A stretch of DNA of 896 bases from the NCBI RefSeq assembly GCF_003334305.1, contig NZ_QOWS01000065.1; one strand, 5' to 3'. Made by a program: the position numbers and the translations under genes. The notes below the pieces were generated by a model, which saw only the letters and a list, made by a program, of their open reading frames with translations, was not told where the DNA came from and made no database searches. Below are positions 1 through 896 of the stretch, in pieces; position 1 is the stretch's first letter, and every line of letters begins with the position of its first letter. Source of the DNA: Escherichia coli. Its GTDB lineage: Bacteria > Pseudomonadota > Gammaproteobacteria > Enterobacterales > Enterobacteriaceae.

Positions 1-896
1 TTCGGGCGGACGCTGACTTTCCACCGGGCAGCTAAGGGTGACGTGGCGGGCGCGGTGACGGGGGTGACGGACGGCGCGGGCCGCCGTTTTCACCTGGCGC
101 TGACCACGCAGGCGCAGCGGGCGGAAGCCTTCCGTAAACAGCGCGCCACGTCTTTATCTTCCCCTGCCGGTCCCCGTTCTGCTTCCTCTTCTTCTGCTTT
201 CCCCGACACGCTGCCCGCCGGTACAGAATACGGTGCCGATAACGGTATCCGGCTGGAGGCGGTGTGGCTGACACACGACCCGGCATACCCGGATGAACAG
301 CCGACTGCGCCGCTGGCGCGCTACACGTACACGGCCAGCGGAGAACTGCGGGCGGTGTATGACCGCAGCGGAACGCAGGTGCGCGGGTTTACTTATGATG
401 CGGAGCACGCCGGGCGGATGGTGGCGCACCATTATGCGGGGAGGCCGGAGAGCTGCTACCGGTATGATGATACCGGTCGGGTGACGGAGCAGGTCAACCC
501 GGAGGGGCTGGACTACCGCTTTGAGTACGGAGAGAGCCGGGTAATCATCACGGACAGCCTGAACCGGCGGGAGGTGCTGTACACGGAAGGCGAGGGTGGC
601 CTGAAGCGGGTGGTGAAGAAGGAACATGCGGACGGGAGCATTACCCGCAGCGAGTATGATGAGGCGGGGAGGCTGAAGGCACAGACGGATGCGGCGGGGC
701 GGCGGACGGAGTACAGCCTGCATATGGCGTCGGGTGCGGTGACGGCGGTGACGGGGCCGGACGGCAGGACGGTGCGGTATGGCTATAACAGCCAGCGGCA
801 GGTGACGTCAGTGACGTACCCGGACGGGCTTCGCAGCAGCCGGGAGTATGATGAGAAGGGAAGGCTGACGGCGGAGACCTCGCGCAGCGGTGAGAC
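1..896 (+). CDS. Rhs-family YD-repeat protein, internal fragment of the conserved core (5' and 3' ends both outside the window)
   Basis: Seen in sequence: frame 1 is open across all 298 complete codons (1-894) with no stop. Translation begins FGRTLTFHRAAKGDVAGAVTGVTDGAGRRFHLALTTQAQRAEAF and ends YPDGLRSSREYDEKGRLTAETSRSGE. It contains repeated YD-repeat units (RYTYTASGELRAVYD, GFTYDAEHAGRMVAH, YRYDDTGRVTEQ, SEYDEAGRLKAQTD, VRYGYNSQRQVTSVT, REYDEKGRLTAET). Codons strongly favour G/C, especially G, at the third position (acg, gcg, cgg, ctg, gtg, gag). Established knowledge: these motifs and the conserved blocks DSLNRREVL, GLKRVVKKE and AQTDAAGRRTEY are characteristic of enterobacterial Rhs core proteins. 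No database search was run; the paralog or subfamily cannot be assigned from memory, so no gene symbol is given. Confidence 0.93.
148..207 (+). repeat. Low-complexity Ser/Pro-rich segment (TSLSSPAGPRSASSSSAFPD) encoded by a pyrimidine-rich tract, including an in-frame (tct)3 run at 187-195
   Basis: Seen in sequence: nt 151-205 are almost entirely C/T on the + strand (tctttatcttcccctgccggtccccgttctgcttcctcttcttctgctttcccc), in sharp contrast to the G-rich codons on either side. In frame 1 this gives a serine/proline-rich stretch with four consecutive Ser codons (tcc tct tct tct). Confidence 0.6.
454..495 (+). repeat. Canonical YD-repeat unit (CYRYDDTGRVTEQV)
   Basis: Frame 1 codons 152-165 match the Y-R-Y-D-x-x-G-R-(V/L) core of the YD-repeat consensus almost perfectly. 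Confidence 0.8.
646..687 (+). repeat. Canonical YD-repeat unit (RSEYDEAGRLKAQT)
   Basis: Frame 1 codons 216-229, E-Y-D-x-x-G-R-L-x-x-x-T-D motif. Its nucleotide sequence is an imperfect direct repeat of 838-879. Confidence 0.8.
838..879 (+). repeat. Canonical YD-repeat unit (SREYDEKGRLTAET)
   Basis: Frame 1 codons 280-293, E-Y-D-x-x-G-R-L motif. Shares gagtatgatgag...aggctga with 652-676. Confidence 0.8.

What the first reader, a model, noticed from the sequence alone, without database searches (positions are those of the whole stretch)
208..894. Clearly Rhs-core-like but divergent from the E. coli K-12 RhsA core as I recall it
Blocks such as AFPDTLP, DPAYP, GRMVAH, YRYDDTGRV, DSLNRREVL, GLKRVVKKE, AQTDAAGRRTEY and ETSRSGE match my recollection of the E. 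coli RhsA core at the corresponding positions, but many intervening residues differ (for example RFEYGESRVIIT, SLHMASGAVTAVTGPDGRTVRYGYNSQRQVTSVTYPDGL). This suggests a different Rhs subfamily or a different host species rather than a K-12 rhsA/B/C copy. The comparison is from memory, not from a database search.
Basis: established knowledge. Interest (0 to 1): 0.35.

Follow-up and report, generated by a model that had tools for sequence, protein, structure and literature searches.

The report
Known E. coli RhsG/H-subfamily Rhs core fragment

Summary
Frame 1 is open across all 896 bases and encodes 298 aa of an Rhs core (NCBIfam RHS_core E=4.8e-167, five Pfam RHS repeats). A direct alignment to K-12 RhsA shows 61.7% aa and about 68% nt identity.

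The interpretation resolves to a different subfamily in the same species. The window is 99.8% nt identical (two synonymous differences, protein 100%) to "RHS element core protein" genes in many complete E. coli genomes. In all four closest hits inspected, that gene is the second core of the tandem locus between yncH and pptA and is followed by "dsORF-h1". This is the RhsH arrangement. Copies 92-98% identical sit directly after hcp-vgrG at the fadE type VI secretion locus, the RhsG position as I recall it. The segment tree gives three clusters: A/B/C, D/E-type, and this one. They match the published rhsABCF, rhsDE and rhsGH subfamilies.

The window most likely encodes the N-terminal wall of the YD-repeat cocoon of a T6SS polymorphic toxin. 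This is already known and of low interest. Whether the window's own gene copy is intact cannot be told, because three of the four closest relatives carry an upstream A8-to-A7 frameshift.

The parts
1..896 (+). Internal fragment of one Rhs core ORF in frame 1. It corresponds to about codons 219-516 of the 1420-codon intact relative, and the ORF runs off both ends of the window.
   Evidence: Open frame. NF041261 RHS_core E=4.8e-167 over aa 1-298. 99.8% nt and 100% aa identity to L001 gene positions 654-1549 and L011 gene positions 655-1550. Substitutions against relatives are concentrated at codon position 3.
1..150 (+). End of the N-terminal region that precedes the repeat wall (FGRTLTFHR...LTTQAQRAEAFRKQRA). 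It is conserved with K-12 RhsA.
   Evidence: Alignment to RhsA aa 216-265. It is part of the NF041261 match.
151..195 (+). Ser/Pro-rich low-complexity linker (TSLSSPAGPRSASSS). This is the one indel site relative to K-12 RhsA, which is 9 aa shorter here.
   Evidence: Pairwise alignment. One gap in tblastn against RhsA/B/C and two against RhsD.
196..327 (+). Conserved AFPDTLP...WLTHDPAYP segment that leads into the first YD repeat. The finding's stated start (208) falls inside it.
   Evidence: Aligns to Tse5 residues from 188 onward.
328..441 (+). RHS/YD repeat 1 (aa 110-147)
   Evidence: Pfam PF05593 i-E=1.7e-4
463..555 (+). RHS/YD repeat 2 (aa 155-185)
   Evidence: Pfam PF05593 i-E=1.3e-3
607..702 (+). 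RHS/YD repeat 3 (aa 203-234)
   Evidence: Pfam PF05593 i-E=2e-5. Best TIGR01643 stretch is aa 203-238.
727..891 (+). RHS/YD repeats 4 and 5, which overlap (aa 243-276 and 267-297)
   Evidence: Pfam PF05593 i-E=5.2e-9 and 3.5e-6

Best explanation
The window is an internal piece (about codons 219-516 of about 1420) of an Escherichia coli Rhs core gene of the RhsG/H subfamily. It is most likely the RhsH-type copy that lies in tandem downstream of an RhsE-type core between yncH and pptA. By homology to solved Rhs effectors, the encoded segment is the first part of the YD-repeat beta-sheet spiral. This spiral forms a closed cocoon around a variable C-terminal toxin. The whole protein has four parts: an N-terminal PAAR-motif region with DUF6531, the cocoon, the Rhs-associated core autoprotease motif, and a roughly 149-aa tip. 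It would be mounted on a VgrG spike and fired by a type VI secretion system into neighbouring bacteria. The small downstream ORF (dsORF-h1) would protect the producer. Shown here: identity, subfamily placement, the locus of the closest relatives, and the domain layout of the intact relative. Inferred from the family, not shown here: cocoon formation, autocleavage, T6SS delivery, toxicity and immunity.
For: Identity: 99.8% nt over 896/896 bases to many E. coli chromosomes annotated RHS element core protein, and the protein is 100% identical. Locus: all four closest hits inspected show vgrG, an RhsE-type core with dsORF-e4, IS elements, this core with dsORF-h1, then pptA-yddH-nhoA-narZ. This is the K-12 rhsE position. 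Subfamily: the distance tree of the window segment gives three clusters, and the window is 92-99.8% identical within its cluster but 67-75% to the others. Jackson et al. 2009 report the subfamilies rhsABCF, rhsDE and rhsGH. Family: the intact relative L011 9347-13609 scores 2645 bits on NF041261 (cut-off 2000) and also matches TIGR03696 and YD repeats. Pfam finds DUF6531, RHS repeats and PF03527. The N-terminus reads MSGKPAARQGD. T6SS link: same-subfamily copies lie directly after hcp-vgrG in a tss cluster at the fadE locus and after vgrG in E. albertii. Fold and mechanism: the window matches the solved T6SS Rhs effectors Tse5 (E=7.7e-30), P. protegens RhsA 7q97 (6.4e-25), S. bongori Rhs core (7e-22), Tse15 and Tre23. 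The cocoon, double autocleavage and VgrG mounting are described in PMC8765631 and bioRxiv 10.1101/2024.02.26.582050. Polymorphic-toxin pattern: four cores of this subfamily carry four unrelated tips.
Against: The window has no flanks, so its own locus, its tip and its intactness are unknown. No 100% nt match exists in the 5426 complete E. coli genomes. The two differing bases carry the fadE-locus state, so an unsampled allele or a gene-conversion product is possible. Three of the four closest relatives are annotated as frameshifted, with A7 instead of A8 near codon 40. The RhsH-type copy is not adjacent to vgrG; it lies about 7 kb downstream, behind another core and IS elements. Pfam did not call a PAAR domain. 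The closest intact relative ends its core with IDSLGL, whereas the seven other cores examined have DP[LM]GL. No experiment on this subfamily's secretion or toxicity was found in the searchable literature. The details of the 1998 paper that named RhsG and RhsH come from my memory, because that paper could not be read.
Confidence: 0.9

Rival explanations
1. The subfamily is the same but the locus is different. The window comes from the vgrG-adjacent copy at the hcp-vgrG-...-yafV-ivy-fadE T6SS locus (the RhsG position), not from the RhsH-type tandem copy.
For: fadE-locus copies belong to the same cluster at 92-98% nt. The window's two differences from the RhsH-locus alleles (G774, A810) are the state seen in all three fadE-locus copies. 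Only 4 of the roughly 30 top hits at 99.8% had their context inspected.
Against: The best fadE-locus copy sampled differs at 18 positions, against 2 for the RhsH-locus copies. All four inspected 99.8% hits are at the yncH-pptA locus.
Confidence: 0.08
2. The window belongs to an inactive remnant. It would be the same RhsH-type gene, disabled by the upstream homopolymer frameshift or otherwise decayed, so the encoded cocoon wall is not made.
For: Three of the four closest relatives (L001, L010, L012) are annotated as frameshifted. The cause is A7 instead of A8 at gene nt about 114-121. The neighbouring RhsE-type core is also a pseudogene in all four, and the locus is full of IS fragments.
Against: The window itself is fully open and differs from relatives only synonymously. 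An intact copy exists in NCTC9088. A single-base homopolymer difference could be an assembly error or a reversible slippage.
Confidence: 0.4
3. The window comes from a different host species that carries a related Rhs core.
For: The subfamily exists in Escherichia albertii NBRC 107761. Contigs binned as Collinsella and Akkermansia also match.
Against: E. albertii is only 91.8% identical, against 99.8% for E. coli. The MAG contigs are short. One of them carries a VgrG that is 99% identical to the E. coli one, so they look like mis-binned E. coli DNA. Shigella was not examined separately.
Confidence: 0.04
4. It is a non-Rhs YD-repeat protein, such as a teneurin-like protein, a Tc-toxin C component or a wall-associated WapA-type protein.
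For: Teneurin-like chains appear weakly in the PDB search (E=2e-7 to 3e-4), because all of these proteins share YD repeats.
Against: The match to the E. coli RHS_core equivalog is E=4.8e-167. T6SS Rhs effectors match at 1e-30 to 1e-17. The window is 99.8% nt identical to annotated E. coli Rhs cores.
Confidence: 0.01

Closest known systems
E. coli RhsH element, the second core in tandem with RhsE at the yncH-pptA locus, followed by dsORF-h1 (named by Wang, Zhao & Hill 1998, from memory; RefSeq product names 'RHS element core protein' and 'RHS element protein dsORF-h1')
   Same: 99.8% nt and 100% aa identity over the whole window. The reading frame and the position within the gene are the same.
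   Different: There are two synonymous differences (nt 774 and 810). The window's own flanks are unknown. Identity to the originally published ECOR-45 sequence was not tested directly, because that record is not available in these tools.
E. coli vgrG-linked Rhs at the fadE/T6SS locus (the RhsG position) and its E. albertii counterpart
   Same: Same core subfamily at 92-98% nt (E. albertii 91.8%), with the same N-terminal KPAARQGD motif and the same domain order.
   Different: They sit at a different chromosomal locus, directly after hcp-vgrG. Each carries a different C-terminal tip and downstream ORF.
E. coli K-12 RhsA/B/C (rhsABCF subfamily) and RhsD/RhsE (rhsDE subfamily)
   Same: Colinear homologues that belong to the same NCBIfam equivalog and share the same repeat layout. 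Many short blocks are identical.
   Different: Identity is 61.7-63.4% aa and about 68% nt to A/B/C. It is 66-69% aa and 72-75% nt to D and the E-type core. RhsA is 9 aa shorter in the Ser-rich linker.
Structurally solved T6SS Rhs effectors: P. aeruginosa Tse5 (8cp6), P. protegens RhsA (7q97), S. bongori Rhs core (8qjb/8qjd), A. baumannii Tse15 (8uy4), P. laumondii Tre23-Rhs (7pq5)
   Same: YD-repeat cocoon family. The sequence match to the window is E=7.7e-30 to 4.9e-17. They are the basis for the inferred mechanism.
   Different: They are only distantly related in sequence. They have different N-terminal loading regions and toxins. No structure of an E. coli clade I Rhs core was found by sequence search.

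Membership tests
Rhs / YD-repeat core protein (NCBIfam NF041261 'RHS element core protein') | Tandem YD (RHS) repeats | tested here: met
   Five PF05593 hits in the window, four at E<=0.001. TIGR01643 E=5.9e-22.
Rhs / YD-repeat core protein (NCBIfam NF041261 'RHS element core protein') | Whole-protein score above the curated equivalog cut-off (2000 bits) | tested here: inconclusive
   The window is a 298-aa fragment and scores 558 bits, colinear with profile positions 216-512. The 100%-identical intact relative L011 scores 2645 bits, above the 2000-bit cut-off. The source gene itself is not available.
Rhs / YD-repeat core protein (NCBIfam NF041261 'RHS element core protein') | Rhs-associated core domain ending in the PxxxxDPxGL demarcation/autocleavage motif, followed by a variable tip | not testable with these tools
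   This lies outside the window. In relative L011 the domain is present (TIGR03696 82.7 bits, PF03527). The motif there reads PVRFIDSLGL, with Ser in place of the usual Pro.
Rhs / YD-repeat core protein (NCBIfam NF041261 'RHS element core protein') | A G+C-rich core relative to the E. coli genome | tested here: met
   The window is 66.1% GC, with 77% at third codon positions. The E. coli genome average of about 51% is established knowledge.
E. coli RhsG-H core subfamily | Clusters with the G/H-type cores and is separated from the ABC(F) and DE subfamilies by the inter-subfamily divergence (22-29% over whole cores, from memory of Wang et al. 1998) | tested here: met
   The tree and identities show 92-99.8% within the cluster. 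Divergence is 25-27% to the D/E-type cores and about 32% to A/B/C in this segment. The subfamily names are confirmed via Jackson 2009.
E. coli RhsG-H core subfamily | Chromosomal position: RhsH in tandem with RhsE (min 32.8), RhsG near fadE (min 5.3) | tested here: inconclusive
   This is met for the closest relatives. It cannot be tested for the window, which has no flanks. The map positions are from memory.
E. coli RhsG-H core subfamily | Direct identity to the published RhsG (ECOR-11) and RhsH (ECOR-45) sequences | not tested
   Those GenBank records are not in the available collections and the 1998 paper is not held. The only link is the RefSeq product name dsORF-h1.
E. coli RhsA-B-C(-F) subfamily (K-12 rhsA/B/C) | Near-identity among members (cores about 1% divergent, from memory) | tested here: not met
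   61.7-63.4% aa and about 68% nt identity.
T6SS PAAR-Rhs effector | An N-terminal PAAR domain that caps VgrG | tested here: inconclusive
   This lies outside the window. The relative begins MSGKPAARQGD, but Pfam reported only DUF6531 and no PAAR_motif hit.
T6SS PAAR-Rhs effector | Genetic linkage to vgrG and a tss cluster | tested here: met
   fadE-locus copies follow hcp-vgrG next to tssB/C/E/F/G. E. albertii has vgrG immediately upstream. The RhsH-type copy is about 7 kb downstream of a vgrG, behind another core.
T6SS PAAR-Rhs effector | T6SS-dependent export, toxicity of the C-terminal tip, and neutralisation by the downstream immunity protein | not testable with these tools
   This needs experiments. 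The tip and dsORF-h1 have no significant family or PDB match. The only Pfam hit is a weak one to Peptidase_M91 (E=0.0097).

The most novel reading that the evidence does not exclude
The window could be an unsampled recombinant allele. It would be an RhsH-locus core that has exchanged a short tract (around nt 774-810) with the fadE-locus (RhsG-position) copy by gene conversion, or a copy that lives in a host or locus not represented among 5426 complete E. coli genomes. This would only illustrate the already-known exchange between Rhs cores.
Probability: 0.1. Interest if true: 0.1.

Novelty: already known. Interest (0 to 1): 0.07.

Why it matters
It matters little. About half of complete E. coli genomes carry this third Rhs core subfamily, which K-12 lacks. 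The subfamily is linked to type VI secretion loci and carries interchangeable C-terminal toxin tips. It is a routine annotation ("RHS element core protein"), not a new system. The only mildly useful leads lie outside the window. They are the uncharacterised HExxH-containing tip, its dsORF-h1 partner, and the homopolymer that switches the gene in and out of frame.

Tried and rejected
(1) A K-12 rhsA/B/C copy is rejected, at 62-63% aa identity.

(2) The K-12 rhsE pseudogene gave no match. It lacks this 5' part of the core.

(3) A non-Rhs YD-repeat family is rejected.

(4) The long antisense ORF at 154-723 (189 aa) is rejected as a gene. It is open only within this subfamily and has 3-4 stops in the other two. 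Substitutions follow the codon phase of the + strand. It is a by-product of GC-rich coding sequence.

(5) Reading Wang, Zhao & Hill 1998 failed, because PMC107404 is not held. I relied on Jackson 2009 for the subfamily names.

I ran it on two pieces instead.

(7) PADLOC, PHROGs, NCBIfam and PDB sequence searches of the RhsH-type tip, dsORF-h1 and the two small upstream ORFs gave nothing significant.

(8) The EHEC in-silico paper uses the names 'RhsG' and 'RhsH' for short fragments z0702 and z0272. That is its own naming, so I did not use it for subfamily assignment.

(9) I did not run the large protein-database searches or a structure prediction, because the identification was already unambiguous.

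Full report
**What is in the window.** The + strand frame 1 is open for all 298 codons. No other frame has comparable support. The longest alternative is a 189-aa antisense ORF at 154-723. The frame-1 product matches the NCBIfam equivalog NF041261 "RHS element core protein" at E=4.8e-167, colinear with profile positions 216-512 of 1261. It matches the YD-repeat model TIGR01643 at E=5.9e-22. Pfam places five RHS_repeat units at aa 110-147, 155-185, 203-234, 243-276 and 267-297. The window is 66% G+C, with 77% at third codon positions, as expected for an Rhs core in an enterobacterial genome. Against close relatives, differences fall mainly on codon position 3 (for example 4/1/13 and 9/8/26 at positions 1/2/3). 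This confirms the frame and shows purifying selection.

I fetched the five K-12 rhs loci and aligned the window to them.
- Identity to RhsA/B is 61.7% aa and about 68% nt. It is 63.4% aa to RhsC and 68.8% aa (73% nt) to RhsD.
- The K-12 rhsE pseudogene lacks this part of the core and gave no match.
- The blocks recalled as matching scored AFPDTLP 7/7, GRMVAH 6/6, GLKRVVKKE 9/9, AQTDAAGRRTEY 11/12, DSLNRREVL 8/9, YRYDDTGRV 7/9 and DPAYP 4/5. Only ETSRSGE was poor, at 3/7.
- The two stretches recalled as divergent are 4/12 and 18/39 identical.
- The single indel against RhsA is a 9-aa difference in a Ser/Pro-rich linker (nt 151-195).

The homology covers the whole window, and the first cited block begins at nt 196 rather than 208.

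**What it is.** Megablast against 5426 complete E. coli genomes finds matches in 2623 of them. By best place per record, 260 records are >=99% identical, 1447 are 95-99% and 877 are 90-95%. The best matches are 99.8% over all 896 bases, and all are annotated "RHS element core protein". The two differences (nt 774 and 810) are synonymous third-position changes, so the protein is 100% identical.

I inspected the context of four of the 99.8% hits. All four show the same arrangement:
- yncH, then vgrG
- an RhsE-type core with "dsORF-e4"
- IS and ISAs1 fragments
- a 150-aa hypothetical gene and a 64-aa DUF3969 gene
- this core with "dsORF-h1"
- ISAs1, then pptA, yddH, nhoA and narZ

This is the chromosomal position of rhsE in K-12. 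As I recall it, it corresponds to the RhsH element that Wang, Zhao and Hill (J Bacteriol 1998) described as lying in tandem with RhsE. I could not open that paper. Jackson et al. [quoted passage not shown]

A distance tree of the window-homologous segment reproduces three clusters:
- K-12 A/B/C
- K-12 D with the RhsE-type cores
- the window, the RhsH-locus copies (99.8%) and copies at a second locus (98.0, 95.2 and 92.1%)

That second locus is hcp-vgrG-Rhs-...-yafV-ivy-fadE, inside a tssB/C/E/F/G cluster. From memory, this is the RhsG position (min 5.3) and corresponds to locus 1 of Jackson's Table 3. Divergence between clusters in this segment is 25-32%.

**Other species.** I scanned one genome per species with a degenerate pattern specific to this subfamily's VNPEGLDYRFEYG peptide. 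It hit Escherichia albertii NBRC 107761. That copy is 91.8% nt identical to the window and 89.9% aa identical over the whole core. It has vgrG immediately upstream. The scan also hit three short MAG contigs labelled Collinsella or Akkermansia. One of them encodes a VgrG 99% identical to the E. coli protein, so these look like mis-binned E. coli DNA. Nothing is closer to the window than the E. coli RhsH-type copies.

**How it most likely works.** The intact relative (NCTC9088, L011 9347-13609, 1420 aa) has these features:
- It exceeds the curated RHS_core cut-off (2645 against 2000 bits) and has the Rhs-associated core domain.
- Its N-terminus reads MSGKPAARQGD and is followed by DUF6531.
- Its core ends in ...YYDPLQGRYITQDPIGL...PVRFIDSLGL, followed by a 149-aa tip containing HEFAH.
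- Four cores of this subfamily carry four unrelated tips. This is the polymorphic-toxin pattern.

The window matches solved T6SS Rhs effectors: Tse5 8cp6 at E=7.7e-30, P. protegens RhsA 7q97 at 6.4e-25, S. bongori Rhs core at 7e-22, and also Tse15 and Tre23. For these proteins it has been shown that the repeats form a closed beta-cocoon enclosing the toxin. Both the N-terminal plug and the C-terminal toxin are autoproteolytically cleaved, and the particle is mounted on VgrG (PMC8765631; bioRxiv 10.1101/2024.02.26.582050).

By inference, the window encodes the region just before the repeats and the first five YD repeats of the cocoon wall. These are structural parts, not catalytic ones. Delivery, cleavage, toxicity and immunity for this subfamily are inferred, not shown.

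**Caveats.**
- The window has no flanks, so its locus and intactness are unknown.
- Three of the four closest relatives are annotated as frameshifted. The cause is A7 instead of A8 at gene nt about 114-121, roughly 530 nt upstream of the window. This may be real slippage, decay or an assembly error.
- The window's two differences from the RhsH-locus alleles carry the base seen in the fadE-locus copies. This allows an unsampled allele or a short conversion tract.

**Verdict.** The sequence belongs to a subfamily described in 1998 that RefSeq annotates routinely and that about half of complete E. coli genomes carry. It is already known, and interest is low.

Noticed in passing
L011 9460-9474 (A8) against L001 11461-11474 (A7); the same A7 in L010 and L012; about 530 nt upstream of the window's position in the gene: The RhsH-type gene is in frame with an A8 run (CCT AAA AAA AAG, 'PKKK') in NCTC9088. 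It is frameshifted with A7 in three other strains. This could be slip-strand on/off switching, decay or a homopolymer assembly error.
   Followed up: partly
L011 about 13110-13609 (C-terminal end of the intact relative; outside the window): The core of the RhsH-type protein ends in PVRFIDSLGL, whereas all seven other cores examined have DP[LM]GL. Its 149-aa tip contains an HEFAH (HExxH) motif and gives only a weak Pfam hit to Peptidase_M91 (E=0.0097). It has no PDB, NCBIfam or PADLOC match. This suggests an uncharacterised metallopeptidase-like toxin.
   Followed up: partly
L011 13621-14070 (dsORF-h1), 8354-8806 (150-aa hypothetical) and 9072-9266 (64-aa DUF3969): The presumed immunity ORF and two small ORFs just upstream of the RhsH-type core have no hit in NCBIfam, PADLOC or PHROGs. 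The role of the two upstream ORFs (chaperone or adaptor?) is unknown.
   Followed up: partly
window 154-723, minus strand: There is a 189-aa antisense ORF. It is open in all members of this subfamily but has 3-4 stops in the RhsA/B/C and RhsD/E-type cores. It is most likely a by-product of GC-rich, codon-biased coding sequence.
   Followed up: yes
window 151-195: A Ser/Pro-rich low-complexity linker (TSLSSPAGPRSASSS) lies between the conserved N-terminal region and the AFPDTLP block. It is the only indel site against K-12 RhsA, which is 9 aa shorter here.
   Followed up: partly
E. coli hits H65-H69 (e.g. NZ_CM184318.1 3573204-3573862, NZ_CP072976.1 1009869-1010186): Some genomes hold 5'-truncated copies that match only window positions 238-896, 457-896 or 579-896 at 97-99%. 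The annotated features under these matches are an 'RHS repeat-associated core domain-containing protein' and tssM. These look like Rhs core remnants next to a T6SS gene.
   Followed up: no
L014, L015 (MAGs labelled Collinsella) and L016 (MAG labelled Akkermansia muciniphila): Short contigs in gut MAGs of unrelated phyla carry this Rhs core at 93-97% nt. L016 also carries a VgrG 99% identical to the E. coli one. This is probably binning contamination by E. coli DNA.
   Followed up: partly
L001 3034-7088, L010 1034-5088, L011 2285-6500, L012 1033-5087: The vgrG-adjacent RhsE-type core upstream of the RhsH-type copy is a pseudogene in all four strains inspected. It is frameshifted, and in three of them an IS3 element lies immediately downstream of it and a short Rhs remnant follows the IS3. 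The tandem locus seems to be decaying.
   Followed up: no
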